From: Candidatus Heimdallarchaeota archaeon
GTDB lineage: Archaea > Asgardarchaeota > Heimdallarchaeia > Heimdallarchaeales > Kariarchaeaceae
Length of the DNA stretch: 61,379 nucleotides
Direction of reading: 5' to 3'
Assembly (NCBI GenBank): GCA_015523565.1
Contig: WAKA01000126.1
Location: forward strand, 1 to 61,379
The notes beneath the pieces were generated by a model. That model was not told where the DNA came from. It saw only the letters and a program-made list of their open reading frames with translations, and searched no databases. A program made the translations under genes and the position numbers. This document shows, one piece after another, positions 1,392 through 28,664 of this stretch. Position 1 is the stretch's first letter; every line of letters starts with the position of its first letter.

Positions 1392-4148
1392 ATGGAAAAG
1401 AAATGGATAACCCACACGCCCATGATGAGACAATGGAGTCAAATGAAAACAGATTTGGGCGAGGATGTCATTCTTTTTTGCCGAATTGGCGATTTTTATG
1501 AGCTTTTCTATGAAGATGCAGAAATTGGTGCACGAGAACTGGATATTGCTTTAACCTCCCGAAAAATAGGAAATTCCGCTCACCCGCTCGCGGGTGTACC
1601 TGTTAGGAGTATAGATTCATATGTAAGCAGACTCGTTTCTAAAGGATATAAGGTTGCCATTGCAGACCAATTAGAAGACCCCAAAGCAGTAAAAGGGGTT
1701 GTTAAAAGGGGCATCACAAGAATTGTAACAAGGGGAACTATTGTTGATGAATCTCTCTTGAACGCGGGAAAAAACAACTACATCGCCTCTATTCTGGAAG
1801 TAAAAAGCAGATCTGGAAAGGAATTTGGTCTTGCAGTTGCAGACCTGTCTGTAGGTGACTTTTTTGTTAAGGAATTCAAAGGGCCTGATGCAGAAACATT
1901 GCTTAAATATGCTCTTGACATTACTTCCCCCGTAGAATTTGTTTATCCTGACCAGATGGAGGATCGTATTAAAGTTTACTTGAATGATGACATAAAATCA
2001 GAATATACTTTAACGGCTCGTCCTGATTTTTGGTTCGACCCTGTTGAGGCTACAGAGGTTTTATGGACTCATTTCAATGTCAGTTCGTTGAAAGGCTATG
2101 GTATCGAAGATCAAAGCATTGCTGCCCGAGTAGCTGGCGCTCTTTTGAGATATCTGAAAGAAACACAGATGAGACCTATTAGTAATATAACAAAAATGCA
2201 AATTCTAAATCTTAGCAATGTCATGATGCTTGATAAAAATGTGTTGAGAAGTCTAGAGGTCTTTGAAAATACTTTGGACCGTAGTGAAGTCGGCACCTTG
2301 GTTGAACTCATGGACAATACGGCTACAGCTATGGGAAGCAGACTATTGCGAAGATGGTTGGCGGCTCCTCTTGTCGATCCGAAAGAAATTTTGAAAAGAT
2401 GGTCTATTGTAGAAAAACTTCTTGAATCAGAAATTGAACAGCACTCATTACGCTCAATTTTGCAATCAATCCATGACATCGAAAGAATTGCGACAAGGAT
2501 TTCATTGAAACTTGTTCGTCCAGCAGAACTTATTAAATTAAAGGAGTCATTAAGTTTTCTCCCCCAGATTACTGCAATTCTAGATGAAATCCGCACTAAT
2601 CCTGGAATAAATGACCTCCTTGAAAATTTTGATACCTTGGAGGATATTCATGAATTTCTTTCAAAATGGATCTATCCTGAACCTGCGGCTTCTCCCTCTG
2701 ACGGTTCAGTCATTGCTTTTGGTGTCAACAGCCGTCTTGATGAACTTCGGAAAATCCTTGAAGAAGGTGAAAGATGGGTAAAACGCTATGAGGAAGAACA
2801 AATAAGGAAAACTGGAATCACTTCACTTAAGGTTAAACAAAATAGACAATTGGGATATTACATTGAAGTTACAAGAAAAAACACAAGCAAAGTGCCATCC
2901 CATTATGTCAGCAGGCAGGCGATGGTCAATGCTGTCAGGTATGTTACTGATGAACTTAAGCAATGGGAGAGCAATATTCTCAATGCAGAAATTGAGATTG
3001 TCGAGTTGGAAAATGAATTGTACTCAATGGTTCTTGAGAATCTGGGTAAGCACTTCGAACGAATTCACGAAACAGGACAAAAGCTTGCCTACATAGATTG
3101 CCTATCAAACTTTGCGTATCTTGCTTCTACAAATAACTATTCAAAACCAGAGCTTGTAGATGGCACTTCATTGCTTCTTCAAGGCGGTCGTCATCCTGTA
3201 ATTGAATCTTTCCAAAACTCACAAGCATATGTCCCAAATGACGTTCGGCTTGACAAGATTAACAATCAACTTTTAATCATCACGGGACCAAATTACAGTG
3301 GTAAAAGTTCATTGCTACGAATGGTTGCTTTGAATATCATAATGGCCCAAACAGGTTCATTTGTTCCCGCGAGCAATATGAAACTTGGAATATTTGACAG
3401 GATATTCACAAGAATCGGTGCCTCTGATAATCTAATAGCAGGTCAAAGCACTTTCATGGTTGAAATGCTTGATGCGGCAAACTTTGTGAACAATTCCACA
3501 AATCGATCACTAATCATCGCGGATGAAATTGGTCGCGGGACATCAACCTATGATGGGTTGGCAATTGCATGGGCAATAGCTGAATATCTTCACAATTCTG
3601 AGAAGAAACCATTGACAATGATTGCTACACATTATCACCAACTTTCAGAATTGGAAGGGTATCTGGAAAGGGCGAAAAACTATCATTTCCAAATCAGCTT
3701 TGATGGGGAACGCCCAATTTTTAATCATAAACTATTCCGAGGAAGTTCTGACAAAAGTTTTGGCGTTGAGGTTGCAAAACTTGCTGGACTTCCACTAGAC
3801 CTGATTGTACGAGCAAGGTTCATATTGTCTATTTTGGAATCACAAGCTTCAACCATTGAAATTGAACAAATCGACACCTCCGTTGCCAATAAAATAAAGG
3901 TTGCAACAGAATTGGAGGAACAACAGGCAAGTTTGGCTTCTTGGATTGATGCAGATCCACCTTCCCAACCAAAGAAAAAGGAATCTTCTCAGAAGAGAAA
4001 AGAGAAAAAAACAACTGTCCTGCAATTGACACCCAACCAATTAGAAGTAATTGAAACGATCAAAAGCATTTCAATTGAAAATCTGACTCCAATTCGTGCA
4101 CTTCAATTAATGGAGGAACTGAAAAATCTTCTGATGAGGGACGAATAA
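1392..4148 (+). CDS. mutS: DNA mismatch repair protein MutS (MutS1)
   Basis: TPMMRQW, GDFYELF (Phe-X-Glu), Walker A TGPNYSGKS, STFMVEM, DEIGRGTST, SFGVEVAKLAGLP. Confidence 0.97.
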   Translation: MEKKWITHTPMMRQWSQMKTDLGEDVILFCRIGDFYELFYEDAEIGARELDIALTSRKIGNSAHPLAGVPVRSIDSYVSRLVSKGYKVAIADQLEDPKAVKGVVKRGITRIVTRGTIVDESLLNAGKNNYIASILEVKSRSGKEFGLAVADLSVGDFFVKEFKGPDAETLLKYALDITSPVEFVYPDQMEDRIKVYLNDDIKSEYTLTARPDFWFDPVEATEVLWTHFNVSSLKGYGIEDQSIAARVAGALLRYLKETQMRPISNITKMQILNLSNVMMLDKNVLRSLEVFENTLDRSEVGTLVELMDNTATAMGSRLLRRWLAAPLVDPKEILKRWSIVEKLLESEIEQHSLRSILQSIHDIERIATRISLKLVRPAELIKLKESLSFLPQITAILDEIRTNPGINDLLENFDTLEDIHEFLSKWIYPEPAASPSDGSVIAFGVNSRLDELRKILEEGERWVKRYEEEQIRKTGITSLKVKQNRQLGYYIEVTRKNTSKVPSHYVSRQAMVNAVRYVTDELKQWESNILNAEIEIVELENELYSMVLENLGKHFERIHETGQKLAYIDCLSNFAYLASTNNYSKPELVDGTSLLLQGGRHPVIESFQNSQAYVPNDVRLDKINNQLLIITGPNYSGKSSLLRMVALNIIMAQTGSFVPASNMKLGIFDRIFTRIGASDNLIAGQSTFMVEMLDAANFVNNSTNRSLIIADEIGRGTSTYDGLAIAWAIAEYLHNSEKKPLTMIATHYHQLSELEGYLERAKNYHFQISFDGERPIFNHKLFRGSSDKSFGVEVAKLAGLPLDLIVRARFILSILESQASTIEIEQIDTSVANKIKVATELEEQQASLASWIDADPPSQPKKKESSQKRKEKKTTVLQLTPNQLEVIETIKSISIENLTPIRALQLMEELKNLLMRDE

Positions 4149-5947
4149 TGGGATTAATCAAGGAAATTCCTCCAAACCTAGTTCGAAAAATTGCTGCAGG
4201 GGAAGTGATTACTCGCCCTGTAGATATAATCAAAGAGCTTATCGAAAACTCCATTGATGCTGATTCGTCAAAAATCAATGTGGTATTTGAAAATGGAGGC
4301 ATAGATCGAATAATCGTTGAAGACAATGGTTCGGGCATTCCAAAGGAAGATGTGGAATTTGCATTTAAACTACACACTTCAAGTAAGATAGATGAAAACA
4401 AGCTCTTTTCAGTTCCAACCTTGGGTTTTAGAGGGGAGGCGCTCTCGTCAATTTCCATCGTGTCAAAAATTAGGTGCAAAACCAGATATCATAAAGAGGA
4501 AGAAGGAACAGAATTAATCTTGGAAGCAGGAAAAGTAATCAAGAAATCCCCAATAAAATTCTCTCAAGGTACTAGGATGGAAATCACGGGTTTGTTTCAT
4601 AATGTCCCCGCTCGCCGCAAATTCCTAAAAAGCCCCCAAACAGAAAAAAGGCAAATTGTCACAGTCTTTACTCATTTTGCATTGATGTACCCCTCCATTC
4701 ATTTCATTCTTATGGAAATCAAAAATGGTAGACAGACCAAAGTTCTGGAAAGTCCATCTAGGTCCAAATTCTTATCTGTGGTCTATGATGTCTTGGGCGC
4801 CGATATTGCATCAAATCTGATTCATGTGGAAGGAAATGCAGGTCGATGGGCTGTTGACGGGTTTGTTTCAATTCCATCATATATTAGAAAAGACAGAAGC
4901 CAACAATTTGTTTCTGTCAATGGTCGCATGGTAAGACATTCAGATATCAATAAAACCATTGAAGAAGCATATGGCTCAAGATTACTCAAAGGAAACCATC
5001 CAATTATCATAGTAAAGTTAGAGGGAGAACATGAGTGGGTTGACTATAATGTTCATCCACAAAAGCTTGAAATTCGGTTTTCTGCTTCTGATCCCATATT
5101 GTTTGAATTAAAGGAATTAATAAGCCAAACACTTGATGCCAGTTCCGAACTTCCCAAATTGGACAGGAAAAAAGCTCCAAAGGTAAAAGAGACCCCTGAA
5201 ATTGCTTCAAATGAAACAACAAAAATAGGTGTTGCAAAACCTGTTGTTGAGACAACTTCATCGTTTACGCAAATGTCTTTGTCAGATACAATGTCTTTGG
5301 AAAAAGCATCAAAGAATTCCAAGTTGCCTGTAGCAGCAGAAGTCAAAGGTGGCTTTAGAATACTAGGGCATATAATGAAGAAATTCGCGTTAATAGAAAA
5401 AGATGATGAATTGTGGGTGATGGATGTTCATGCATCTGATGAGCGGGTAAAATTCGAACAATACGAATCAATGAAGAACAGACTAGTGATGTCTCAGTCT
5501 CTTTTATCTCCTGTTCGTTTCAACCTTACCGAAAATGATCGTTCCGCTTTAATTGAACATTTGGAACCGCTAAAAAAATTTGGATTGGAAATTTCACTTG
5601 GTGAACGCTCAGAAGTACTGGTTCATAGTGTTCCTGTTTATTTTGATCAGGATATAACAAGAGATAGCCTCAAAAGCCTGTTGCTTGATTTCTCTGCCTA
5701 TGTTCAAGAATTTGGAGACAAACGGGTCAATACCCCTCTTGACAGTATTGAATATCGCGTTGTCGCAAGACTGGCTTGCCATGGTGCAGTTAGGTCTGGC
5801 TATCATGTAAGTGATGCAAAAATTGCGGAGATCCTAAAAAATCTCATGAAATGCAAAAATCCATGGACATGTGCGCACGGGCGACCAACAATTTTAAGAA
5901 TAGATCTAGGTACGATCGAAAGTTGGTTCAAAAGAACTGGTCAATAA
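4148..5947 (+). CDS. mutL: DNA mismatch repair endonuclease MutL
   Basis: IAAGEVI, KELIENSIDA, GFRGEAL. C-terminal endonuclease motifs DVHASDERVKFE, ACH and CAHGRP. Start overlaps the mutS stop (TAATG). Confidence 0.97.
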   Translation: MGLIKEIPPNLVRKIAAGEVITRPVDIIKELIENSIDADSSKINVVFENGGIDRIIVEDNGSGIPKEDVEFAFKLHTSSKIDENKLFSVPTLGFRGEALSSISIVSKIRCKTRYHKEEEGTELILEAGKVIKKSPIKFSQGTRMEITGLFHNVPARRKFLKSPQTEKRQIVTVFTHFALMYPSIHFILMEIKNGRQTKVLESPSRSKFLSVVYDVLGADIASNLIHVEGNAGRWAVDGFVSIPSYIRKDRSQQFVSVNGRMVRHSDINKTIEEAYGSRLLKGNHPIIIVKLEGEHEWVDYNVHPQKLEIRFSASDPILFELKELISQTLDASSELPKLDRKKAPKVKETPEIASNETTKIGVAKPVVETTSSFTQMSLSDTMSLEKASKNSKLPVAAEVKGGFRILGHIMKKFALIEKDDELWVMDVHASDERVKFEQYESMKNRLVMSQSLLSPVRFNLTENDRSALIEHLEPLKKFGLEISLGERSEVLVHSVPVYFDQDITRDSLKSLLLDFSAYVQEFGDKRVNTPLDSIEYRVVARLACHGAVRSGYHVSDAKIAEILKNLMKCKNPWTCAHGRPTILRIDLGTIESWFKRTGQ

Positions 5948-7153
5948 CTATTGATTGTTATTGTTTGACATTCTCGATTCCAATAGTACCTTTAATTCAG
6001 TCTCAAATCCCAAAGTTTTGAGTGTAAGGGGTAAAAAGTCATATTCCTTGATATATCTAATATTTTGGATGCTCATTGTATATGTCTTTGGTTCATCGAT
6101 TATGTAATCATGTTTCAAATAATATCTCATCAATTCATCATGTGCATTGTTGAATTCCTCAAAACTCCGATGAGCGGAGATAATAAACCCGTCCAAATTT
6201 TTGGAAACATAGAAGAAAGGCGCTAACAGATTTCTCACCATTTCTGCAGCTTCCTGCCTTTGTCTCATTGTGGTTCTGGGATTGAATTTCCTGTAAGAAA
6301 ACACTAAGATTTTCATTCCCAGCTTTTGAAGGTCTGGTACCGCTCTTGGGAAACAAATGTTTTGTGCAAGGAATTTTCTTTTGGCATTTGCAACAGTGTT
6401 TCTTGAAACTCCCACCTCTTCTGCAATTAATGTATCCGATTCTTCAGGGAATTGGACAAGACCAGTCAAGACTTTCTTCTCTGCCTTTGTTAATTTGACA
6501 GGCTTGACCTTTCCAGTCGGTATTGTTTTTCTTTTCTCATAAGGTTCAGAGGCAAATCCAAATGTTTTTGCAACTAAACTCTCATAATCCATGAATGCAC
6601 GAATTCTCGTAATTTCAAATGGAAAGTGAACAACGTCCATTCCATTCTTGTCCAAAAATTTATTGTCAGAATACAGTTGAATGAACTTCTCTTGATTCTT
6701 TGCATATTCCGTAAGGTTCTTGCTGGCAGACAAATTGAATGCCTTGTTCGACTCACTGGCAATATGGAAATCCTCAACAAAAGATTGAAGCAAGTTCTTT
6801 GCCACTCGCATTCTTTCCTCTATGGTTGTAAATCGGTTCAAATGCCCATGCATCGCCACCAAAAGTTCCAATCCAATCTTTGGAAAATTCGGTACATAGT
6901 ACCGCTTGTAATATCCATTTTCCTTCAATCGTGTCTTAATGGAGGAAAAGGTGGACTTTTTCATGCCAATCTGTGAATGAACTGCTTGATCTGTTAAATC
7001 TGGCCATTTGATCAATGAATGCAAAACTCTTGCTTCATTTTGACTCAATCCGCTTACGCGATCTTCATTTAGGCTCCATTCATCATATCTCTGCATAGTA
7101 TACAACGGAATTAGGTAGTTGATCTTAAAAAACGTTTTGAAAATTTTCACCAA
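5948..7153 (-). CDS. Tandem-duplicated Lrp/AsnC-like winged-helix regulator
   Basis: Two similar halves: LSQNEARVLHSLIKWPDLTDQAVHSQIGMKKSTF...PNFPKIG and LTKAEKKVLTGLVQFPEESDTLIAEEVGVSRNTV...PDLQKLG. The true start is probably the later ATG (MQRYDE). Confidence 0.7.
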   Translation of the reverse strand: MVKIFKTFFKINYLIPLYTMQRYDEWSLNEDRVSGLSQNEARVLHSLIKWPDLTDQAVHSQIGMKKSTFSSIKTRLKENGYYKRYYVPNFPKIGLELLVAMHGHLNRFTTIEERMRVAKNLLQSFVEDFHIASESNKAFNLSASKNLTEYAKNQEKFIQLYSDNKFLDKNGMDVVHFPFEITRIRAFMDYESLVAKTFGFASEPYEKRKTIPTGKVKPVKLTKAEKKVLTGLVQFPEESDTLIAEEVGVSRNTVANAKRKFLAQNICFPRAVPDLQKLGMKILVFSYRKFNPRTTMRQRQEAAEMVRNLLAPFFYVSKNLDGFIISAHRSFEEFNNAHDELMRYYLKHDYIIDEPKTYTMSIQNIRYIKEYDFLPLTLKTLGFETELKVLLESRMSNNNNQ

Positions 7154-7396
7154 TCCAAAATCTGGAAAAATTCTTAATTTAGGTGTAGATTCTTACCGTG
7201 TACGCATAGTAATGGGATTTATAATGTAGTGTAAATTGTCGTGTTTGATCCTTTCGTTTTACAATATTCCTAATTGCCATTGTAAATCCAACTTAAATTC
7301 ATCCCTTTTAAAATTAATGAATTTTGTTTTTCATAATTCCAAATTTATTGACTTCAAGAAGAAAGACTTAAGGGAGTCATTGCTAATTAAGACATA

Positions 7397-7990
7397 GTGT
7401 CTTCAGAAATAAGAAGCTTTATTCGCCAAATTGAAAAATGGGTTGAAACCGATCCTGAAAAGGCATTGTCAGAGGGAATTACAGCAATTCAAAAAGAAGA
7501 TAGACTATTCAATTTTGAAGGGTCATATATCATTGCATCAAAACTTGCAGAAATTCTTGAACAATTGGGTGACAAAACGAGAGCTGCCAAAATGGCGGGA
7601 ATTGCGGCTATTAGAGCAACATTTCTGAACAATCCAATCGAGGAAAAAAAATCTTTGGCAAAATTGGATCCCGAAAGACCAATTTCATTGTTTGCTAATT
7701 CTATTGTAGATGGGAAAGGGGACGATAGTCACAAACACTACTACTTGCTTGAATTGGAACAGCAATCCCTTTGGGGGGATTTCAAAAAACTTACCCCTTT
7801 ACCGTTCATTGATTTTGAAAATGCCGATGAGGCAAAAATGATTTTGGAGGATTATTTTCCAAATGCAATCTATCATTTGCATATGATTGAAAGAAATACA
7901 CATCAAAAAAGGAGAATAGATATCCCCGTTGGACAGTTGGAGGAATTGGACGTAATTGAAACAGTTCGAACGGTTATAATTAAAATTTAA
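7397..7990 (+). CDS. Hypothetical protein with helical, TPR-like N-terminus
   Basis: 197-aa ORF, first of a co-directional five-gene cluster. No family recognised. Confidence 0.6.
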   Translation: MSSEIRSFIRQIEKWVETDPEKALSEGITAIQKEDRLFNFEGSYIIASKLAEILEQLGDKTRAAKMAGIAAIRATFLNNPIEEKKSLAKLDPERPISLFANSIVDGKGDDSHKHYYLLELEQQSLWGDFKKLTPLPFIDFENADEAKMILEDYFPNAIYHLHMIERNTHQKRRIDIPVGQLEELDVIETVRTVIIKI

Positions 7991-8061
7991 GAGTAAAGAA
8001 AAAGCATGCTGTCAATCCAGATGCACAATAAATTTTAAGGTTGAAAACAGTGTGATATTGA

Positions 8062-9687
8062 ATGAGCTTTGGCAAAAAACCATTGGGCAAGGCAATTTGG
8101 GGTACAACAACCTATCGAGTTCTATTAGAGACTTCCTCACAAGCATTTACAGAAGACATGACTGGTACACTTACGTTATATGAAAGAAGATGGGTTTCTC
8201 AACGTGCAGACTTTGAAAGTAGGAGTGAAATGATAAATGCTCTTCGAGAAATGTGGGAATCCTCATTAAGACAAGGGATTATACAGGATGCAAGATTTGC
8301 AAGATGGTTAGAGGAATATCTAAATGAAATTGGTATTGCTGTAGAATACGAAGATGTCTTAAAAGCAGTAAAAGGGGAAAAGTCAGATGTGGAAAAGTCT
8401 CATCTTTCTCCTGATGAGCTTGTTGAAGTATTAGGCAACGAAAAAGAGATGAAAGATGAGGAATTGAAGGAAATTTCAGAATCTTTTGATGGGATTGTCA
8501 CGACAGGTGTTTCTGTTGGATTTAATAGGGAAATTGCTATAGAGGAAACAGAAGAAATCCTTAGCACTCTAGTTGAAAAATATAAAACAAAGGCAAGGCT
8601 AACAACTTCTACAATTGTAAAATTCAAGGATCTTCAGGGTGAAGAAAGAACTATCCAATCAGAGGCGCCCATTATTTCTTCGCCTACAATTGGGGCAATG
8701 GTTCTCACAAGGGATTTTGTCAATTCATTCGGTTCCGAAATAGATTATTTGGAAATGGAAATTGTAATTCCATATGAATATGAAATCCACAATTTTATTG
8801 TCGATGGATCACTTTCTCGAATTGCAGAAATTGAAACTCCTGATGGTGTTCTTGTTAAGTGGAAATGCGAAAAACTCAAACCAGGGCAAAAGGTAGGGCT
8901 TACATATCACTTACTCCCCCGTATTACTCGAACAATTATCATTCAAACTCCCAAGATGGCCCAGATATTTCGGGTCTATGAAAAAATTGAGAAAAACAAT
9001 GGCTTGTTTGTAAGTGAGACCAAAATCAGTAATCCAACTTCTGAAACTATCTCTTCTGTTGCAGTTCTCGACCAAATTCCTCGATTTTTGAGCATAAGCC
9101 ATTCTTCTCCCCCCATCAATCCTCCATTGGCAACCACAAATGTAACGGAAGACAATTTTGAAGTCAATTGGTTATTTCAGAACCTGGCGCCAGATGGTTC
9201 ATTGGAAATACAGTATGAGCTACAAGAACGGCCTTATGTTGTGAGAGACATATATCTTGTCAAGACTCCAGAATCTGTTCCGATATTGGAAGGGCTCAAA
9301 ATAACGAAACCACTGAAAAGACAATCTGGTTATGGGGTTATCTTTGGATGTAGGGGTCTAAGACCAATTAATGAGCCAATAACAATTATTGATGAGCTTC
9401 CCAAGCACATGAGTGTTTCAATCATTGACATGACTTCCGGAGACATGTCTGTAACTGAAGAACGGGGTCGAATCCTTGTTAAATGGGAGCTTGAAAGATT
9501 GGAAAAAGATAAGGAGGAATTTGCATATCTCCGCTATAAATCAGAGGAAACATATGAGAATACCTCCCTAAACATTATGATAAAGGAAAATGAACCTGAA
9601 AGAATATTGGATTCGGAAACCAATAGGAAAGTTGATTCCATTGTTCTACCCCATAAATTCATAGAAGAGGTGGATACGCAATTCTGA
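8062..9687 (+). CDS. Cytoplasmic multi-beta-sandwich (Ig-like / mu-homology-like) protein
   Basis: Repeated [VI]xDx[IL]P...xW.....L.P......Y units (VLDQIPRFL...VNWLFQNLAPDGSLEIQY; IIDELPKHM...VKWELERL). No signal peptide. Resembles the 31085 ORF. Confidence 0.6.
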   Translation: MSFGKKPLGKAIWGTTTYRVLLETSSQAFTEDMTGTLTLYERRWVSQRADFESRSEMINALREMWESSLRQGIIQDARFARWLEEYLNEIGIAVEYEDVLKAVKGEKSDVEKSHLSPDELVEVLGNEKEMKDEELKEISESFDGIVTTGVSVGFNREIAIEETEEILSTLVEKYKTKARLTTSTIVKFKDLQGEERTIQSEAPIISSPTIGAMVLTRDFVNSFGSEIDYLEMEIVIPYEYEIHNFIVDGSLSRIAEIETPDGVLVKWKCEKLKPGQKVGLTYHLLPRITRTIIIQTPKMAQIFRVYEKIEKNNGLFVSETKISNPTSETISSVAVLDQIPRFLSISHSSPPINPPLATTNVTEDNFEVNWLFQNLAPDGSLEIQYELQERPYVVRDIYLVKTPESVPILEGLKITKPLKRQSGYGVIFGCRGLRPINEPITIIDELPKHMSVSIIDMTSGDMSVTEERGRILVKWELERLEKDKEEFAYLRYKSEETYENTSLNIMIKENEPERILDSETNRKVDSIVLPHKFIEEVDTQF

Positions 9688-9730
9688 TTGGTAATTACGT
9701 ACCCTTTTAATTGTTGTAATTAATAATAAT

Positions 9731-10456
9731 ATGAGAATGGTTGAATCAATAAAGAATTCTGGACTTCCAATTCCTGCTACACCCAAAAAAAAGGAAGAGG
9801 ACCCAAAAGAAAAAGATGAAATCATTTCCAAAGGAAAAAACAATGCATATATTCATGTAAGGGTAGACCCTCATTTTAAAGAAGACCTTCTAAAAAAAGT
9901 TGAAGAACAAAATACAAATTTGACTGCCTTCGTAGTCAATACACTTTCTGAAGCTGTCTACAAAAAAGAAGAAGAAGAAATTGACAAGGATGAGAAATTC
10001 TTGGATGAGATCTTGGATGCCATGGAAAATTTGGAAAGGAGAATTGAAATCCGACTTTCCACACTTCAAGACACCTTTAACTCATTGATTGGTCGACTTA
10101 TTGATTTTGAGAACAGAGAAAGGAAACGCAAAAAACGAAGAAGAGGTTCAAAAGACGATGATGAGGACGAAGACATCCGTTCTGCTTTGGAAAAGGAAAA
10201 TGTCCTGAAAATAGAACCTGAAAAGATTATTTATGCAAGGGTAAAAAGATATATTGAAAACCGAGGCTCAAACAACTTTCCAGAATACGAAGAAATCCTT
10301 GCCCACTTAGAAACGGATTCAAGAATAAAAGAATATTTAGATGTCCAAGGCGCTGATTTTCCAGGATGGAAGGAATCTTTGATAACTGATGCTATTGAAG
10401 AGGCCATAGAAGAGTTGGGTATTTCTGTTATTAGGAAAGGAGGTGAGAAGAAATAG
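9731..10456 (+). CDS. Ribbon-helix-helix DNA-binding protein with coiled coil and a basic/acidic tract
   Basis: AYIHVRVDPHFKEDLLKKVEEQNTNLTAFVVNTLSEAV fits the RHH pattern. It is followed by a heptad-like segment and RERKRKKRRRGSKDDDEDED. Confidence 0.6.
   Translation: MRMVESIKNSGLPIPATPKKKEEDPKEKDEIISKGKNNAYIHVRVDPHFKEDLLKKVEEQNTNLTAFVVNTLSEAVYKKEEEEIDKDEKFLDEILDAMENLERRIEIRLSTLQDTFNSLIGRLIDFENRERKRKKRRRGSKDDDEDEDIRSALEKENVLKIEPEKIIYARVKRYIENRGSNNFPEYEEILAHLETDSRIKEYLDVQGADFPGWKESLITDAIEEAIEELGISVIRKGGEKK
10439..10446 (+). promoter_or_regulatory. Shine-Dalgarno GGAGGTGA upstream of a putative ATA start (10453)
   Basis: Strong archaeal SD 6 nt before an in-frame ATA that overlaps the upstream TAG stop. 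Confidence 0.55.
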
Positions 10457-12012
10457 CCCGCCGTCCTTTCGTTCGAAGAAAATCAAATGAAAAACGAAAT
10501 GAAGAGGCCTTGGACATATTCAAGCTTTTCAATCGGCTTAGACCAAATACCCGCCAAAAGTATTACCGAATAATTAATAATTTTGCACAATTCCTTTTGA
10601 TCCACAAAAAATCATTATGGGATGCCACTGCGCTTGATATTCGAAAATATCTTCTCCAAGAGGGTGATGCACAAGCCCGTAGCATCCTAAAAACATTTTA
10701 CAGGATATTGATTGAATCTGGTGAATTCATAGGGGACAACCCTGTAATTGTCTTAGCAAACTTGGAAGAAGAAGAAAGAAAGCATGGCTTGGAAGAACCC
10801 AAAACAATTTCCACTGCCGAATCAGTCCTACAAAGCCTAAATCCAGACATGGATCTCAACACTGATCTTACAACCCCTCGTGTTCAAAAGAAAAAGAAAT
10901 TGCCCAAACCCATCATGACCTTGACAGATCTTGAACATCTTCTTAAAAGAACATCCCATATCAGGGAAAAGGCAATTTTGGAAGTACTTTTCTTTACTGG
11001 TGCCAAACTCAAAGAAATAGTTGATCTAAATGTTTCCGATGTCGATTTGGAAGGCAGAAAAATTCTCTTTTTTGAAAATAACCAAGAAGTCTCTAGAGCA
11101 ATTGCCATTCCAAAACGCGCATTAAATTACCTTAAGCTCTACGAAAGATGGAGATATCGCCAGCTTTCTCCCTCAAACGCCTACTTCATAACAAAGCGAA
11201 CAAAAGAAAGAATGAACGTTTCTACAATATCTACATGGCTTTATAGGCTCCAAAGGGACAAAGAACCTGAAAACCGCTGGACTGCCTCCGATTTCAGGAA
11301 AAGGGCAATACTTCAGCACTATTGGCTTACCAAGGATTTGGCATCCGTGACCCGTTTTGCAGGATTTAAAAGACCGGAAGCCACACTTCGTGTAGTCAAT
11401 CAAATCCTAATGGATCGTGGTATAGAAACACTAGACGAACTAGCTAACCTGCCTGAATTTGAAGACTTGGAAAAAGACCGGAAAAAAGCAAGCACTAGAT
11501 TGGAAGAGCAATCCACAACCATTACCATCAATCTTGATCCTGATGAACTTGAAATAATCAGAAAATCAGGCTTGACCCCAACCCAAGCTGTCAAAACGGT
11601 TATTTCCTTGAAAGACCTTTATTCTGCCTTTGCTCCCGTTGCCGCGGCTCCGGCAAGATCTGCACCTTCAGCCAGCTTGGCCGCTGCCATGAATGTCGGT
11701 AAGCCAGGAGGGGTACCAAGTTTAGGCAGTAAGGCAAAACGTGAAAGTAAACCCAAGCCCATGAAACCCAAAGGACCTATTGGTCCACGACCGGGTGGTC
11801 CTGGGCCAGCCCCCATGGGTGGCGGCGGTCTAAGTTTCCTAAGCGAGCTAAAGGCCAAACTTCAAGCAAGAAACAAAGAGCAAAAAGAAAAGAAGGAGAT
11901 TACTGTAGGTCCCCAAGATCACTTTTCAAATGTAAAAATTGTTGATGCCAATTCACCTAATGAAGAGGAAACAAAAGAGGACGAAGAGGATAAAGAAAAG
12001 ACGGAAAGCTGA
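10453..12012 (+). CDS. Catalytically degenerate tyrosine-recombinase (Xer/integrase)-fold protein with Pro/Gly-rich tail
   Basis: SAM-like N-domain (NTRQKYYRIINNFAQFL...ATALDIRKYL). Box I EKAILEVLFFTGAKLKEIVDLNVSDVD; box II TASDFRK...DLASVTRFAGFKRPEATLRV. The ORF-track start is TTG 10510, but the frame is open back to 10447. Confidence 0.8.
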   Translation: MARRPFVRRKSNEKRNEEALDIFKLFNRLRPNTRQKYYRIINNFAQFLLIHKKSLWDATALDIRKYLLQEGDAQARSILKTFYRILIESGEFIGDNPVIVLANLEEEERKHGLEEPKTISTAESVLQSLNPDMDLNTDLTTPRVQKKKKLPKPIMTLTDLEHLLKRTSHIREKAILEVLFFTGAKLKEIVDLNVSDVDLEGRKILFFENNQEVSRAIAIPKRALNYLKLYERWRYRQLSPSNAYFITKRTKERMNVSTISTWLYRLQRDKEPENRWTASDFRKRAILQHYWLTKDLASVTRFAGFKRPEATLRVVNQILMDRGIETLDELANLPEFEDLEKDRKKASTRLEEQSTTITINLDPDELEIIRKSGLTPTQAVKTVISLKDLYSAFAPVAAAPARSAPSASLAAAMNVGKPGGVPSLGSKAKRESKPKPMKPKGPIGPRPGGPGPAPMGGGGLSFLSELKAKLQARNKEQKEKKEITVGPQDHFSNVKIVDANSPNEEETKEDEEDKEKTES

Positions 12013-12033
12013 TTGAATAAATTTTTATGAGTA

Positions 12034-12354
12034 TTGGTTCGATATAATTACATGGAAGATGAGAAATTTTACAAGACATTGCGGTTAAATATTTTGGAAA
12101 TGCTTAAGCCGAGCGCCGCCCGAAAAAACCGTCCTAAACTTACAGATGTTGATTTTTTGGCAAAAATTAAATCTCTTTACATCTTAAGCAAAAGAAAACC
12201 AACAAAAGACGAAACAATGAAGTGTATTAAGGATCTCATTGATTTTGGGTATGTCAAAGAATCCAAAATGGATTCGGTAACCATTTGGTCAATAACTGAT
12301 AAAGGTGTTGATGCATTAAAACAGCTTTCACATGGTGAAGAGGTCAAAATTTAA
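12034..12354 (+). CDS. Small winged-helix protein
   Basis: TKDETMKCIKDLIDFGYVKE...WSITDKGVDAL is a wHTH recognition helix plus wing signature. Confidence 0.65.
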   Translation: MVRYNYMEDEKFYKTLRLNILEMLKPSAARKNRPKLTDVDFLAKIKSLYILSKRKPTKDETMKCIKDLIDFGYVKESKMDSVTIWSITDKGVDALKQLSHGEEVKI

Positions 12355-12605
12355 AGAAGTGAAACCATTTCTTGAATGGTATTCATGAGAAAGGTATTGG
12401 ATGTTCCCTCCTGAAGTAATTCATTTACAATTTTGGAAACAGTTTTTTTGTCAGGTATTGAATTTCGCAAAATTTCAATTTTTGTTGTTGTTGGGATCTC
12501 TTCCTTCTCCAAAATTTTTCTGACCATCTCTTTATAAATAAAGTAGTCAGACATCATTTCGACTTCTTTTTCGCGCATCATAGCAGCATGCTCAGCATCA
12601 CACAC
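12351..12605 (-). CDS. Small hypothetical protein
   Basis: 84-aa ORF converging on the wHTH gene. Start uncertain. Confidence 0.45.
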   Translation of the reverse strand: MCDAEHAAMMREKEVEMMSDYFIYKEMVRKILEKEEIPTTTKIEILRNSIPDKKTVSKIVNELLQEGTSNTFLMNTIQEMVSLL

Positions 12606-12768
12606 AATAACGTTTCTTCTAGCTCCGCTATAATAACTTTTGTAGCGTTATTCGGAATTGTTTTACCGTTCGTGTACGATTTTCACAACCTTCCAATTCC
12701 CAAAAAATAATTGTTCTGATTCTGATTTGTTGAGTATTATTTTTATGAACCACTTTTTGTTTTATACC

Positions 12769-14319
12769 ATGGATGTCAAGTCCAAAATCTTGCTTGTCAT
12801 TATTGATGGCTTTGGGATTTCTGAAAAAATAGAAGGCAACTCAATAAAGCTTGCGAATACTCCTAATTGGGATGCTCTTGTCAGGGAATATCCATGGATA
12901 CCCTTAGATGCTTCTGGAAATGCTGTTGGATTACCCGACGGAGTGATGGGCAATAGTGAAGTTGGACATCTCACCATTGGATCAGGAAGAATAGAATTTC
13001 AAAGTTTTGAAAAAATAAATCAATCAATTAAAAACGGAACCTTCAAAGACAATCCTCAGCTACAAAAATTAATAAACAATGCCATAGCTCAATCAGGTGT
13101 AGTTCACCTAATGGGGCTAGTCAGTAAAGGTGGTGTTCATTCTCATTTTAACCATTTAAAGGCTTTAATTTCAATATTTGCAACTAATCCTGGAATAAAA
13201 AAGGTGTATATTCATGCATTTACTGATGGGAGGGATGTTTCTCCTCATAGTTCAATTCATGATATCCCTGAACTCATTGAATACATCGGAAATTTTGGAA
13301 ATGTAAAATTGACTGATATTATTGGTCGATTTTATGCAATGGACAGAGACAAAAGATGGGAAAGAACCAAAATTGCATATGATCTCCTAACCGCTGAACG
13401 AACTCAAGAAATGGTAGTCACCGACCTTAAAAGTGAAATCCAAAAACGTTACGAGGTAGGTGAAACTGACGAATTTTTAAAACCAATCATCCTTTCGACA
13501 GAGGGCACAATACAGGACAATGATACAGTTCTTTTCTTCAACTTTAGACCAGATCGTGCAAGACAACTCACTCAGTTTTTCATCTCACCCCAAAAATGGT
13601 CTGAACTTCATCTCAAAAAACTAAACAATTTGAATTTTGGCACAATGACTGAGTATGATCCGAATTACAATGTCATTGTCCTTTTCCCTGATGAAAAAGT
13701 AAAGAATACACTTGCAGAGGTACTGTCAAATCATGGAATCAGGCAATTACATGTTGCAGAAACAGAAAAATATGCCCATGTGACTTATTTTCTTAATGGT
13801 GGTGAAGAAAATCCTTTTCCGAATGAAGACCGAATTTTGATCCCAAGCAAAAGAAATTACCCAACCTATGACTTAATTCCTGAAATGAGCACAAAAGAGA
13901 TTGGTGATGCAGTAATAAAAGGATTGCAAGGTAATCCCCACTCCTATGACTTTATTGTTTGCAATTTTGCCTCTCCTGATATGGTTGGTCATACTGGAAA
14001 TCTAAAAGCAACAATTGCCGCAATTGAAATATTGGATGGGGTGCTTGGGAACATCCATTCTGAAGCAAAAAAGAATGAGTTTGTCATGATAGTAACAGCA
14101 GACCATGGGAATGCAGAACAGATGCAGGATGAAAACGGCAATCCTCACACAGCTCATACAACAAATCCTGTTCCGTTTTTAATAACAAAAATGAGATTAA
14201 AACTGAAATCCCATGGAGGGCTGTCAAATGTAGCCCCCTCAATACTTGACTTGATGGGTATTCAAAAACCACCAGAAATGACATCAGAAACACTAATTGT
14301 CCATGACAAAGTGGAATGA
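12769..14319 (+). CDS. gpmI: 2,3-bisphosphoglycerate-independent phosphoglycerate mutase (bacterial type)
   Basis: IIDGFG, MGNSEVGH, GGVHSH, AMDRDKRW, AETEKYAHVT, DMVGHTG, TADHGN. Start moved to ATG 12769 (MDVKSK). Confidence 0.95.
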   Translation: MDVKSKILLVIIDGFGISEKIEGNSIKLANTPNWDALVREYPWIPLDASGNAVGLPDGVMGNSEVGHLTIGSGRIEFQSFEKINQSIKNGTFKDNPQLQKLINNAIAQSGVVHLMGLVSKGGVHSHFNHLKALISIFATNPGIKKVYIHAFTDGRDVSPHSSIHDIPELIEYIGNFGNVKLTDIIGRFYAMDRDKRWERTKIAYDLLTAERTQEMVVTDLKSEIQKRYEVGETDEFLKPIILSTEGTIQDNDTVLFFNFRPDRARQLTQFFISPQKWSELHLKKLNNLNFGTMTEYDPNYNVIVLFPDEKVKNTLAEVLSNHGIRQLHVAETEKYAHVTYFLNGGEENPFPNEDRILIPSKRNYPTYDLIPEMSTKEIGDAVIKGLQGNPHSYDFIVCNFASPDMVGHTGNLKATIAAIEILDGVLGNIHSEAKKNEFVMIVTADHGNAEQMQDENGNPHTAHTTNPVPFLITKMRLKLKSHGGLSNVAPSILDLMGIQKPPEMTSETLIVHDKVE

Positions 14320-15000
14320 TTGAAAAACATACAAACCATATTGGTATTGTTGAAAAAAATCCGAATATTATTGGTTCGTCATGGAACAACTGATTGGAAT
14401 AGGGAAAAAAGACTTCAAGGGCAACTTGATTTACCAATCAATTCCCAAGGAAGAAGAGAGGCAATGACTGTATCAAATCGCTTGAAATCAGAACCTATCA
14501 GTGACATTTTCTCCTCAGACCTTCTTCGATGCCGTCAAACAGCAAGTTTTATTCGAAATAGGCATCCCCAATCAATCTACCATGAAACCAATTTTCTCAG
14601 AGAGGCAAATTCTGGAATTATGGGCGGTAAAAATATTAGGCGGCTCATGGGGTCTGAATTGTCATCTTTAAATGCCTTGAAAGAGTTTTTCAAACATTAT
14701 GGCGAATCAATGGAGGATGTATTCAATCGGATTTGGAAGTTTTTGAATTATCTCCTTTCGAGAAAAGAGGAGTTTGAAGGGAAAACAATCGTTTTTGTCA
14801 CTCATGGCGGTCCCATCAGAATGATATTGGGAAAACTTCTTGGGTATAAACAATCAGAACTCCGTTTGGCAACCAATGAAATCAAGATATCCAATTGCTC
14901 TATTACTGAAATTGTTTACGAGAATGCAAAATGGGAAATTAAGTCAATCAATGATACCGAACATTTGAATCAATTGAAAAAAGTACAACCTATCCTATAG
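14320..15000 (+). CDS. Histidine phosphatase family protein (PGM-like)
   Basis: LVRHGTTDWN, SSDLLRCRQTA, VTHGG, ISNCS. Confidence 0.9.
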   Translation: MKNIQTILVLLKKIRILLVRHGTTDWNREKRLQGQLDLPINSQGRREAMTVSNRLKSEPISDIFSSDLLRCRQTASFIRNRHPQSIYHETNFLREANSGIMGGKNIRRLMGSELSSLNALKEFFKHYGESMEDVFNRIWKFLNYLLSRKEEFEGKTIVFVTHGGPIRMILGKLLGYKQSELRLATNEIKISNCSITEIVYENAKWEIKSINDTEHLNQLKKVQPIL

Positions 15001-15043
15001 CCTGCTTTCAAATGCTTATAAATGACGCCTTATCAAGTCAACT

Positions 15044-16360
15044 ATGGTTTTTGCACCAGAGGTTTACCAAAAAAGGAGAAATTTATTTGCCAAAAAAATG
15101 AAAGAAGGTGTTTTGATTCTTCCATCAAATCCAGAATCCATTATGAGCAACGATGTTCATTATCCTTACCGACAAAATTCTAACATTCTTTATTTCTCTG
15201 GGTTTAAAGAGCCCAACACTGTTCTGGTTCTCGAAAAATCCAATGACAACGTAAAATTCACTATGTTCGTACCTCCACATGATCCAAAATTTGAAATCTG
15301 GAATGGAAGGAGACAAGGGGTTGACGGTGCTAAAAAGAATTTTTTTGCAGATGAAGCCTTTTCCATTGAAAGTTTCTCGGAGAAACTATTGGAAATCATT
15401 GCAGATCAAAATGTTCTTTATTATACTTTCGGGATAAACCCTGAAATTGATCAACTTATTCTGAATTCCAAATCCAAACTCAAAGAAAAAAGAAAACAAT
15501 TCCCTCTTGAAATAATCGATCCTGAGCCAATGATCCATGAAATGCGGCTAATTAAACAGCCTGAGGAAATCGAAATAATGAAAAAAGGCTCTGAAATTTC
15601 TATTCATGCACATTTAAATGCCATCAAAATGACTCGTCCAGGAATGTATGAATATGAAATAGACGCAATTTATGAATATGAGTTTAAAAGACACGGTGCC
15701 AAACGAGCCGCCTATCCTTCAATAGTTGGATCTGGCAAAAATGCAGTCATTCTCCATTATATCGAAAACAATGATCGTTTGGAAGATGGTGACCTATTAC
15801 TTGTCGACGCAGGATGTGAATACAACGATTATGCAATTGATATTACCCGAACTTGGCCTATAAACGGAAAATTCTCAGATGAACAAAAGAAAATCTATGA
15901 AATAGTTCTTACTGTGCAAAACGAGTGTATCGATAAATGTGTCAGTGGGATCAAATTTGGCGATCTCCATAATTATTGCGTCAAACGCATAACTGAAGAA
16001 TTGATCAAACTCAATCTCCTATCTGGTGATATAGATGAAATAATCGAAAATGAGGGATATAAACGATTTTTCATGCATGGGCTCGGACATAATCTTGGTA
16101 TTGATACCCATGACGTATCAACCATTCCACTTAAAGAAAGAATTTTGAAACCTGGAATGGTTGTCACGATTGAACCTGGTATTTATATCCCTGATGAACC
16201 AGATATCCCTGAATCATACAGAGGCATTGGCGTTCGAATTGAGGATGACATCCTGATTACAGAAACAGGGAATCTAAATCTAACAGAAAAACTTCCTAAA
16301 TCGATCAAAGAAATTGAAAAACTGGTTGGCTCAGCTCATTCTGCCACTTCTGTGCTTTGA
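15044..16360 (+). CDS. pepP: Xaa-Pro aminopeptidase
   Basis: AMP_N domain (YRQNSNILYFSG), DAGCE...DITRT, HGLGHNLG, TIEPGIY, GVRIEDD. Confidence 0.93.
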   Translation: MVFAPEVYQKRRNLFAKKMKEGVLILPSNPESIMSNDVHYPYRQNSNILYFSGFKEPNTVLVLEKSNDNVKFTMFVPPHDPKFEIWNGRRQGVDGAKKNFFADEAFSIESFSEKLLEIIADQNVLYYTFGINPEIDQLILNSKSKLKEKRKQFPLEIIDPEPMIHEMRLIKQPEEIEIMKKGSEISIHAHLNAIKMTRPGMYEYEIDAIYEYEFKRHGAKRAAYPSIVGSGKNAVILHYIENNDRLEDGDLLLVDAGCEYNDYAIDITRTWPINGKFSDEQKKIYEIVLTVQNECIDKCVSGIKFGDLHNYCVKRITEELIKLNLLSGDIDEIIENEGYKRFFMHGLGHNLGIDTHDVSTIPLKERILKPGMVVTIEPGIYIPDEPDIPESYRGIGVRIEDDILITETGNLNLTEKLPKSIKEIEKLVGSAHSATSVL

Positions 16361-16689
16361 ACCGCAGGATATCTTTCCATCATTTGTTTTCCAAAATCAT
16401 CAATTCTTTCTATAATATCACATAAAACCATCCCGAATTCACCAATGAAATATGTATGGTGGGGCGGGTTAATTGTCTTCTTTTCTACAATGCCATGGGT
16501 CATGAAATCTGAAAGTAAACCCGAAAGAACGGAAGCAGATATGCCTGGAACGCGTTGTTTTATTTCACCAAATGTCAACGGCGAATGTGTCAATTCATGC
16601 AACACTTTTATTGCCCATTTTCTTCCAATCAATCTTAATGTTTCTTCTACATGGGTTGGTAGGTCTCCTACTTCCTCGTCAAAATCCAC
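16336..16689 (-). CDS. HxlR-family transcriptional regulator
   Basis: TLRLIGRKWAIKVLHEL...TFGEIKQRVPGISASVLS. Confidence 0.85.
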   Translation of the reverse strand: MDFDEEVGDLPTHVEETLRLIGRKWAIKVLHELTHSPLTFGEIKQRVPGISASVLSGLLSDFMTHGIVEKKTINPPHHTYFIGEFGMVLCDIIERIDDFGKQMMERYPAVQSTEVAE

Positions 16690-16823
16690 ACGTTCTATTT
16701 TGTTTGCTTATTATAAGCTTTTCAGGTTCAAAACCGTAATATTGCATGATTCCATGTGTTTGAATGCAAGATTGAATAGGTTTTCCAGAATATTCTTTTA
16801 GGTCAATTTCCTTATAATACCTA

Positions 16824-17576
16824 GTGAGTGATGGAAAACTAAATTTCTTTGTGACATGCCCAAAATGTGAAAAAAGAGAGAAGGTATTGTTTGAAGTGCC
16901 TGAAATGAAAGAGACCAAAACCTTTGGTGGTATTCCTCTTCCTTCTGTAAAAAAGGAAGAAATCTTTTCTCTTAGTTATAATCATGATACCCATACACTC
17001 ATAGTCAATTTTCTTAAAGACGGCACAGTTCAGTCATGCCAAACAATGGAACGGATTGATCGGTCATTGGAAGGTCTTTCAGCTCGTCCCGTGCAACAAG
17101 GGATTAATTTGGCAGAAGGATTGGAAAATGAGTGCTTTCTGTTAATTGTCTCGAAGCTTCCTGATATGTGGGAAATCATGCGCATGATGTCTGCATTGTT
17201 TTTGAAAAACATCCCTTCAGAATTGAACTTCCGTTCTTCCCGAACATCGAACTCATTCATTATAGATGTTGGAAAACTACGTATCGCATTATTTAAGGAT
17301 ACAATGTCCCATAACAATAAAATTTTCCAACGACCTGAACTTTATCTCCTCCTTGATGCAAGAAACAAGCAAAATACATCAATTAATATTCAACCTCCAA
17401 AAATGTTCATTCTAGTAAATTCATTGACCGATCTGACAGACCCGTCAAACACCGAGCTAATGAATTTAATAGATACAACCAGACCCACTGCATTTTTTCA
17501 AGGGAAAACCTTTTCAGAAATTATCGACTCAATTTCAAATATTCTTGTCTTTATTGAACAAGCGGAAAGTTCATAA
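16824..17576 (+). CDS. Hypothetical protein with N-terminal CxxC...HxxH putative Zn domain
   Basis: CPKC ... YNHDTHTLIVNF. Confidence 0.55.
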   Translation: MSDGKLNFFVTCPKCEKREKVLFEVPEMKETKTFGGIPLPSVKKEEIFSLSYNHDTHTLIVNFLKDGTVQSCQTMERIDRSLEGLSARPVQQGINLAEGLENECFLLIVSKLPDMWEIMRMMSALFLKNIPSELNFRSSRTSNSFIIDVGKLRIALFKDTMSHNNKIFQRPELYLLLDARNKQNTSINIQPPKMFILVNSLTDLTDPSNTELMNLIDTTRPTAFFQGKTFSEIIDSISNILVFIEQAESS

Positions 17577-25333: not shown

Positions 25334-25466
25334 TTAAAATTGTCTGAACATTGTTATTAAAAGTAAAGATAGGTTAAGTTGCAAGGTATTCAAGAAATGC
25401 AGTTTGGATAATTCTCACTATAGGTTCATTTATATTGTTCATTATCGATTTTTGTATAGAAAGCCT

Positions 25467-26873: not shown

Positions 26874-27016
26874 AGTCAATTTCTATTATCAAAGAGACAA
26901 GTCAATTAGACTTATCTTGCCTATTATATAAAGCAAAACCATTGAAGATTTTGACGGAATGAGCGCTGATAGTGTACCATTTCACTCTTTATTTAAAAGG
27001 CTCATTCTATATCTAT

Positions 27017-28267: not shown

Positions 28268-28276
28268 GGTGAAAGA

Positions 28277-28657
28277 ATGAATATCTATCGTGAAAATATT
28301 TTGGAACACTACAAAAATCCCCTGAACCATGAAGAAATGGAAGATGCCTCTGCTGATTTTGAAGATTCAAATCCTGTTTGTGGTGATGAAATCCATTTTT
28401 GGGTTAAAATCAGCGATGATGGAAAAATAGAACGGGCTACCTTCAAGGGTACAGGATGCGCCATCAGTCAGGCTAGCGCCTCAATGCTTACTGAAACTGT
28501 TGAAGGCATGTCAATTGATGAAGTCGAGGAAATGGGATCTGATGAAATTCGTGAGCTTGTAGGTGTTCCACTCAGCCCGGTTCGTTTGAAATGCGCATTA
28601 TTGGGGCTCAAAGTTCTCCAAGGAGCCCTCTTGAAATACAAGGGAGAACATCAATAA
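28277..28657 (+). CDS. sufU: SufU/IscU-like scaffold or sulfur-transfer protein
   Basis: ILEHYKNP, NPVCGD, GCAISQASAS, RLKCALL. Confidence 0.9.
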   Translation: MNIYRENILEHYKNPLNHEEMEDASADFEDSNPVCGDEIHFWVKISDDGKIERATFKGTGCAISQASASMLTETVEGMSIDEVEEMGSDEIRELVGVPLSPVRLKCALLGLKVLQGALLKYKGEHQ

Positions 28658-28664
28658 AATAAAG

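What the first reader, a model, noticed from the sequence alone, without database searches (positions are those of the whole stretch)
7397..12354. Candidate undescribed system: five-gene cluster built around a dead recombinase
Seen: five co-directional, closely spaced genes with no recognisable enzyme activity. They encode a helical protein, a cytoplasmic beta-sandwich protein, an RHH + coiled-coil protein, an inactive integrase-fold protein with a Pro-rich tail and a small wHTH protein. I saw no att-like repeat, tRNA target, viral or conjugation genes, and the flanks are housekeeping (mutSL, gpmI). Inference: a domesticated chromosomal module with three DNA-binding folds plus scaffolds. It could organise or segregate the chromosome by coupling DNA to a cytoskeletal or membrane structure. 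No ParA or SMC ATPase is present, so any motor would be encoded elsewhere (e.g. Asgard actin).
Basis: partly seen in the sequence, partly recalled or inferred. Interest (0 to 1): 0.8.

Follow-up and report, generated by a model that had tools for sequence, protein, structure and literature searches.

The report
Domesticated dead recombinase with borrowed tail
The five genes are real but are not one system: the core is a two-gene pair that one branch of Asgard archaea took from a small mobile element, stripped of its DNA-cutting residues and fitted with a tail shared with a candidate actin regulator, so it may tie DNA to the cell's scaffold, which is untested.

Summary
All five ORFs exist. The five-gene unit does not: it is seen in only three genomes of the host's genus (one reordered). 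g1, g2 and g5 are single-copy, order-wide genes with other neighbours elsewhere.

The conserved unit is g3 (RHH, coiled coil) plus g4 (tyrosine-recombinase fold): adjacent in 16/16 loci, single-copy, confined to two families among 400 Asgard genomes, with its own TATA-like box. g4 lacks the catalytic Tyr and both His in 24/24 homologues yet is under strong purifying selection.

The scan reported this pair twice before on other DNA, as XerA-like. New here:
(1) g4 is sister to intact integrases of a multi-copy mobile RHH+integrase cassette (98/100; grouping with host XerA rejected, p-AU 0.004), and g3 matches that cassette's RHH gene full-length.
(2) g4's tail is homologous to the C-terminal part of an unlinked WH2-like-repeat protein.
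(3) No SMC or Smc5/6-like gene was found in 12 genomes of the host family.

Best reading: a non-cutting DNA-binding complex tethering DNA to a scaffold, possibly actin (0.4). A repressor role is a close rival. No binding was shown.

The parts
7397..7990 (+). g1, 197 aa, helical N-terminal part plus small C-terminal domain; order-wide single-copy gene; not part of the g3-g4 unit
   Evidence: 44/51 genomes; next to g2 in f2, next to g5 in most of the host family
8062..9687 (+). g2, 541 aa, alpha/beta N-domain plus three tandem beta-sandwiches, no signal or membrane segment seen; weak structural likeness to mu-homology subdomains; not part of the g3-g4 unit
   Evidence: model pLDDT 82; best Z 10.0 to AP2 mu2 against about 8.4 for unrelated folds; 39/41 genomes
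9705..9711 (+). TATA-like box 32 nt before ATG 9737: probable own, leaderless promoter of g3-g4
   Evidence: same box at -37 to -31 in 9/14 loci, at most 2/14 in any other 15-nt bin; inferred, not mapped
9731..10456 (+). g3, RHH (about 9842-9958), coiled coil (about 9983-10105), C-terminal helical domain; homologue of the partner gene of a mobile integrase cassette; start probably ATG 9737
   Evidence: hhalign 96.6%, E 5e-10 over 186 columns to the mobile gene
10439..10456 (+). Shine-Dalgarno-like GGAGGTG (10439-10445) and ATA start (10453-10455) overlapping the g3 TAG stop: translational coupling through a non-canonical start
   Evidence: ATA at the same place in G001 and G003; ATG overlap in G007 and L034; restores the conserved basic N-terminal arm; inferred
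10453..11448 (+). g4 core: basic arm, core-binding domain, catalytic domain without catalytic set (Arg1 to K at 11005, His1 to S at 11287, Arg2 kept at 11296, His2 to F at 11365, Tyr to V at 11392)
   Evidence: dN 0.098 with saturated dS against G001
11521..11631 (+). g4 conserved strand-helix-helix segment, RHH-like by pattern only
   Evidence: 95% identical to G001; no statistical match to RHH
11632..11826 (+). g4 Pro/Gly-rich disordered linker; many homologues carry GP[NS]L repeats and two keep a WH2-like repeat, this copy does not
11827..12012 (+). g4 invariant amphipathic helix (E-L-x3-L-x2-R) and acidic tail; homologous to the C-terminal part of the unlinked WH2-like 'W' protein
   Evidence: E, L, L, R invariant in 24/24
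12034..12354 (+). g5, small winged-helix protein (start probably ATG 12052); order-wide single-copy gene; follows g4 only in G000 and G001
   Evidence: 44/51 genomes

Best explanation
The five-gene run is a genus-level juxtaposition of a two-gene unit (g3-g4) with three older genes. g3-g4 descends from a small mobile RHH+integrase cassette that became fixed, single-copy and chromosomal in the ancestor of the host family (inferred Kariarchaeaceae) and one sister family [well supported, about 0.85]. The integrase lost its cutting residues but kept its DNA-clamping fold [shown in sequence and model; DNA binding inferred from MrpR, TnsF and Ndc10]. It gained a disordered tail related to the order-wide W protein [homology shown; direction inferred]. 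Proposed mechanism [inferred]: g3 and g4 are made together, g3's RHH and g4's clamp bind and bend chromosomal sites without cutting, and the conserved tail helix docks on the same partner that W binds, most plausibly actin, tethering or positioning the chromosome in a lineage where no SMC was found.
For: Adjacent in 16/16 loci with changing flanks. Exactly co-distributed, 13/400 genomes each, single copy. Tyr and both His absent in 24/24, Arg2 kept in 24/24. g4 82% and its core 91% identical to G001, above gpmI (66%) and pepP (70%), with dS saturated. Tree: dead clade sister to four intact mobile integrases, 98/100; dead+XerA rejected, p-AU 0.004. g3 matches the mobile partner, same order and strand. 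The cassette has six copies in G009, three broken, and five contigs share 80-92% identical cassette stretches, three of them ending at a common boundary. Each genome keeps an intact XerA. A g4-tail profile searched against three whole genomes of family f4 returned only g4 and W (E 3e-5, 0.002, 0.02); hhalign tail vs W 95.5%, score 49 against at most 17 for 100 column shuffles. Tail helix resembles the VASP F-actin-binding site as printed in PMC10340426. Host has an actin. Canonical SMC and Smc5/6-like gene found in 0/12 host-family genomes.
Against: No binding, localisation or expression data. W's own link to actin is unproven: no Pfam WH2 hit, and a PDB search with the tail profile gave only non-significant hits. 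The window's g4 and 22 of 24 homologues score no WH2-like repeat. Family f4 has both the pair and an Smc5/6-like gene, so the pair did not simply replace SMC. Family f2 (0/31) and two host-family genomes (80-82% complete) gave no match for the pair. Low-complexity tails can converge, and column shuffling is a lenient control. The mobile ancestor is known from one 63%-complete genome and one metagenome contig; long branches meet at that node.
Confidence: 0.4

Rival explanations
1. Domesticated repressor or immunity factor, like MrpR: g3-g4 binds operators or the ends of related mobile cassettes and blocks their integrase or their transcription, or regulates host genes; the tail is a generic interaction arm.
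For: MrpR is a tested dead recombinase acting as a repressor (PMC10516654; Z 13.2). RHH proteins are usually repressors (general knowledge). The active cassette family still exists in the same host family.
Against: No shared operator-like palindrome upstream of g3. The active cassette multiplied in G009, which carries an intact g3 and a g4 that runs intact to the contig end. It does not explain an invariant tail helix shared with W.
Confidence: 0.27
2. Nucleoid-structuring or DNA-bridging complex with no actin link: the tail helix mediates self-association or binds a non-cytoskeletal partner shared with W.
For: Fold, conservation and missing SMCs fit equally. Short amphipathic helices in disordered tails are common; W failed WH2 family tests here and in earlier scan notes.
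Against: The tail's only detected relative has a VASP/WASP-like order of parts, and two homologues keep a WH2-like repeat (10.7 and 11.9 bits against 7.1 at most in 1200 shuffles).
Confidence: 0.2
3. Accessory or inhibitor of host XerA at dif, acting in chromosome dimer resolution as a non-cutting partner.
For: An intact XerA co-exists in each genome examined; XerA is the closest solved structure.
Against: g4 does not descend from host XerA and is never next to it in the loci read.
Confidence: 0.07
4. One reading: all five products form one module.
For: All five lie together in three genomes of the genus; g1 and g5 lie within about 5-20 kb of g3-g4 in G006 and G007, and g1 within about 10 kb in L035 and L036.
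Against: mutSL, gpmI, ggt and the TrmB-like gene show the same loose regional linkage. g1, g2 and g5 are kept in f2 without g3-g4. g3 has its own TATA-like box. In f4 genome G018, g1, g2, g5 and g3-g4 lie on four different contigs.
Confidence: 0.06

Closest known systems
MrpR of Bacillus prophage SPbeta (PDB 8a0a; PMC10516654) and phi3T SroF (PDB 9rd5)
   Same: Whole tyrosine-recombinase fold (Z 13.2 and 13.5); MrpR lacks most catalytic residues and binds DNA without recombining.
   Different: Those are phage genes; MrpR keeps its Tyr. g4 is chromosomal, vertically kept, has no Tyr, has an obligate RHH partner gene and a long tail.
Yeast Ndc10/Cbf2 and DUF3504 proteins such as QRICH1 (Crypton-derived; PMC3212892)
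   Same: Host-domesticated, catalytically dead recombinase folds taken from mobile elements; Ndc10 binds centromeres. Distant structural match (Z 7.2 and 6.5).
   Different: Independent origin from eukaryotic Cryptons; no GCR1_C domain here; Ndc10 links DNA to microtubule kinetochores. An analogy, not orthology.
TnsF of Tn6022 (PMC10293859)
   Same: Inactivated tyrosine-recombinase domain used for DNA binding, with an active relative in another element.
   Different: TnsF serves a transposon; no Tn7 genes here; no zinc fingers.
Archaeal XerA (PDB 5hxy, 4a8e; NF040815)
   Same: Closest solved fold (Z 20.6).
   Different: 64 bits against a cut-off of 220; catalytic set lost; separate intact XerA in the genome; shared clade rejected.
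Ena/VASP EVH2 and WASP-family VCA modules
   Same: Order of parts in g4 homologues and W: Pro/Gly region, WH2-like repeat, Gly run plus basic amphipathic helix, acidic end; likeness to VASP FAB by eye.
   Different: No significant profile match; no EVH1/WH1 domain or tetramer coil; fused to a DNA-binding fold.
Mu-homology domain of AP/COPI adaptors (for g2 only)
   Same: Top structural hits for one beta-sandwich (Z 10.0, 9.6, 9.4).
   Different: Three tandem sandwiches, no longin domain detected, 8-12% identity, small margin over adhesin folds; DUF11-like folds also match.

Membership tests
Active tyrosine recombinase | Core-binding plus catalytic domain fold | tested here: met
Active tyrosine recombinase | Catalytic R-K-H-R-H/W-Y | tested here: not met
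   Tyr, His1, His2 absent in 24/24; Arg1 kept in 9/24; Arg2 in 24/24
XerA orthologue or duplicate | Branches with host XerA | tested here: not met
   (p-AU 0.004)
Currently mobile or decaying element | Patchy, multi-copy or broken copies, att/tRNA target, cargo | tested here: not met
   single intact copy in 13 genomes, genera monophyletic where sampled, no tRNA in the window or 22 loci
Domesticated dead recombinase (MrpR/TnsF/Ndc10 kind) | Catalysis lost under purifying selection, with an active mobile relative | tested here: met
Domesticated dead recombinase (MrpR/TnsF/Ndc10 kind) | Binds DNA without cutting | not testable with these tools
   needs EMSA and cleavage assays
Partition system (ParABS, ParMRC, SegAB) | NTPase gene next to the DNA-binding adaptor | tested here: not met
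   none beside g3-g4 in 16 loci
Partition system (ParABS, ParMRC, SegAB) | Centromere-like repeat array nearby | tested here: inconclusive
   none seen in 3000-17000 or upstream of g3; sites could lie elsewhere
WH2 / VCA / EVH2 actin-binding module | Profile match to PF02205 or solved members | tested here: not met
   no Pfam WH2 hit for 24 g4 homologues or W; PDB hits E above 1
WH2 / VCA / EVH2 actin-binding module | Binds actin | not testable with these tools
   needs co-sedimentation or pyrene-actin assays
Ribbon-helix-helix (g3 N-terminus) | Profile match to RHH families | tested here: met
   NF041551 E 2e-5 (24 bits, cut-off 30), 2kel E 0.0015, many short RHH-sized hits; weak but consistent
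Ribbon-helix-helix (g4 second segment) | Profile or structure match to RHH | tested here: inconclusive
   pattern only; no match; monomer model cannot form the ribbon
AP/COPI mu subunit (g2) | Mu-homology domain plus longin domain | tested here: inconclusive
   Z 10 for one sandwich, no Pfam hit, domains not folded singly

The most novel reading that the evidence does not exclude
g3-g4 is an archaeal DNA-to-actin coupler: a mobile-element recombinase turned into a chromosome-binding clamp and fitted with an actin-regulator tail, paralleling yeast Ndc10 by convergence and helping to position or segregate the chromosome in an Asgard family without detectable SMC.
Probability: 0.18. Interest if true: 0.92.

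Novelty: new variant of a known kind. Interest (0 to 1): 0.66.

Why it matters
How Heimdall-group archaea organise and segregate DNA, and whether their actin touches the chromosome, is open. This pair gives a short, cheap test: one 22-residue helix against host actin, and one dead recombinase against genomic DNA. Even without an actin link it is a traceable case of an archaeal host taking over both genes of a mobile cassette, with the active relatives still present in the same family. My literature searches found no description of it, within a library that lacks most subscription papers.

Tried and rejected
The g3-g4 complex was therefore never modelled. No RNA run was listed for the region, so co-transcription was not tested. 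The profilin search rang nowhere, controls included: uninformative. ScpA was not found in five genomes including one from f2, so it does not discriminate. An apparent 'SMC in f2, pair in f1/f4' complementarity was rejected because f4 has both. The tail-helix profile finds no second protein in the host's own genome, because the host's W lacks that helix. No conserved operator upstream of g3. Catalysis by a shifted Tyr in cis was rejected: no Tyr after the His2 box within the recombinase domain in 24/24; supply in trans was not tested. Atlas searches for g2 and for g4 residues 305-385 gave nothing usable. Viral contigs held only distant integrases. Searches were input errors, corrected.
Full report
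1. Observation. The five ORFs are present at the stated coordinates, on one strand, between mutS-mutL plus a TrmB-like gene and gpmI. There is no tRNA, no convincing att-like repeat and no shift in composition. None of the five has a paralogue in the genome, apart from a weak g4 match to the host XerA. Named homologues of g4 come from Heimdallarchaeota LC_2 and Kariarchaeaceae, so I infer the host family (f1) is Kariarchaeaceae. One correction: the conserved basic arm of g4 lies upstream of the TTG at 10510, and the frame opens at an ATA (10453) overlapping the g3 stop, behind a Shine-Dalgarno-like site. The same ATA occurs in both congeners that carry the gene, and two other relatives have an ATG overlap. 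g4 is therefore probably 519 aa.

2. The five-gene unit is not conserved. The same order occurs in G001, and G003 has g1-g5-g2-g3-g4. g1, g2 and g5 are single-copy across the order (44/51, 39/41 and 44/51 genomes), including family f2, where g3 and g4 were not found (0/31). In f2, g1 sits next to g2. In most of f1, g1 sits next to g5 and g2 is on another contig. In G018 (f4), g1, g2, g5 and g3-g4 lie on four contigs. A loose regional linkage survives in f1, but mutSL, gpmI and ggt share it, so it is not specific. A TATA-like box lies 31-37 nt before g3 in 9/14 loci, the window included, which suggests g3-g4 is its own transcription unit.

3. The real unit is g3+g4. The two are adjacent and co-directional in 16/16 loci (13 genomes plus three other assemblies). 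Each has strong matches in the same 13 of 400 Asgard genomes, in f1 and f4 only. g3 is RHH, coiled coil and a helical C-domain; a search of 1.8 billion representatives found only seven proteins at E below 1e-10. g4 models as core-binding plus catalytic domains (XerA Z 20.6, MrpR 13.2, Ndc10 7.2). The nucleophile Tyr and both His are replaced in 24/24 homologues, Arg1 varies and Arg2 is invariant. Against G001 the catalytic domain is 91% identical (dN 0.098, dS saturated), more conserved than gpmI or pepP. This is a maintained pseudoenzyme, not decay.

4. Origin. The g3 profile weakly hit genes in G009. They lie directly upstream of integrases with a complete catalytic set, in the same order as g3-g4. 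G009 has six such integrases, three broken by stops; five of its contigs share 80-92% identical cassette stretches, three ending at a common boundary with different flanks: a small mobile element. A further copy was found on a metagenome contig (L141). The partner genes align to g3 over 186 columns (96.6%, E 5e-10). In a 61-sequence tree the dead clade (100/100) is sister to these integrases (98/100), away from host XerA; forcing dead+XerA together is rejected (p-AU 0.004). Genera are monophyletic where sampled, as expected for vertical descent. Caveats: long branches, few outgroups, and one incomplete genome as main source. The matching partner gene is independent support.

5. The tail. After a conserved strand-helix-helix segment (RHH-like by pattern only) come a Pro/Gly linker, an invariant helix and an acidic end. 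The host genome has another protein, W (G000:C222:19741-21024), with a coiled coil, GPNLG repeats and three WH2-like repeats; it has orthologues in f1, f2 and f4. In f4 and some f1 genomes W carries the same helix as g4. A g4-tail profile searched against three whole f4 genomes returned only g4 and W, and the two profiles align at 95.5% (score 49, shuffles 17 at most). Two g4 homologues keep one WH2-like repeat. Since W is wider spread and the mobile integrases have no tail, I infer g4 took its tail from W or a shared source. The helix resembles the VASP F-actin-binding site (PMC10340426), but no profile test reaches significance, and W's actin link is itself unproven.

6. Context. The host has one actin, FtsZ-like genes and MinD/ParA-family ATPases elsewhere. 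Asgard archaea often carry two SMC complexes (10.1101/2024.01.07.573240). Canonical SMC was found in 14/14 genomes of two other families of the class but not in f1 or f4. An Smc5/6-like gene (my label, from size and neighbours) was found in f2 (28/31), f3, f4 (3/3) and f7 but in 0/12 of f1. These genomes are 63-94% complete and related, so this is 'not found', not proven absent, and f4 shows the pair can co-exist with an SMC-like gene.

7. Mechanism. Shown: fold, loss of catalysis, selection, pairing, mobile relatives, tail homology. Inferred: co-translation, complex formation, DNA binding without cutting, docking of the tail on W's partner. I give 0.4 to a DNA tether to a scaffold; within that, 0.18 to the full actin-based positioning reading. 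Rivals: repressor or element immunity 0.27, actin-free nucleoid organiser 0.2, XerA accessory 0.07, five-protein module 0.06.

8. Comparison and novelty. It works like MrpR, TnsF, Ndc10 and DUF3504 proteins, all dead recombinases reused for DNA binding, but it is a member of none: its source is a different element. It is not an active recombinase, an XerA duplicate or a ParABS/SegAB system, and it fails the profile test for WH2. g2 has a weak likeness to mu-homology domains (Z 10) and is a separate question. The scan had already reported the g3-g4 pair on other DNA (e1-1238243, e1-5423325) and W several times. Verdict: new variant of a known kind, interest 0.66.

Noticed in passing
L224:10742-12025 (G000:C222:19741-21024): W protein: coiled coil, Pro-rich region, 11 GPNLG-type repeats, three WH2-like repeats, C-terminal helix; order-wide; about 4-8 kb from two FtsZ-like genes in this genome. 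Candidate actin regulator, no Pfam WH2 hit.
   Followed up: partly
L114-L121 (G009) and L141: Apparently undescribed small mobile element: RHH/coiled-coil gene plus tyrosine integrase, six copies in one genome, three intact; found in 1 of 400 Asgard genomes; ends not defined.
   Followed up: partly
host family, 12 genomes: Neither canonical SMC nor the Smc5/6-like gene was found; only Rad50-like long ATPases were seen.
   Followed up: partly
window 10453-10456: ATA start codon overlapping a TAG stop, conserved in three genomes of the genus; gene callers truncate these proteins (P0002-P0005).
   Followed up: yes
window 5948-7153 (-): Two-repeat TrmB/HTH regulator 96% identical to G001, the most conserved gene in the region; next to mutL, and directly after g4 in G003, G007 and L034.
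   Followed up: no
window 7397-9687: g1-g2 adjacency is kept across family f2; g2 has a second, N-terminally related gene in f2 genomes. Possible helical plus mu-like adaptor pair.
   Followed up: partly
L221:4858-9542 (G015): 992-aa SMC-like gene followed by 231-, 192- and 147-aa genes (kleisin-, kite- and zinc-finger-like by position only), with a 98% identical duplicate of the SMC N-terminus 2 kb away, perhaps an assembly repeat.
   Followed up: no
G008:C52:9085-11038: Two tandem genes with strong tubulin/FtsZ-family scores covering the whole domain (E 1e-58, 1e-56), above the FtsZ hits of relatives; possibly Asgard tubulins.
   Followed up: no
G003:C4:261655 and L034:20876-21692: A Cdc6-like gene lies 23 kb and 9 kb from g4 in two long contigs; no Cdc6 match in this window.
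   Followed up: no
L122:10580-12057 (G131): A more distant RHH/coiled-coil/wHTH gene directly before an integrase in another Asgard class: the cassette layout may be wider spread.
   Followed up: no
window 24011-29432: SUF-type iron-sulfur assembly cluster, recognised by eye from translations.
   Followed up: no
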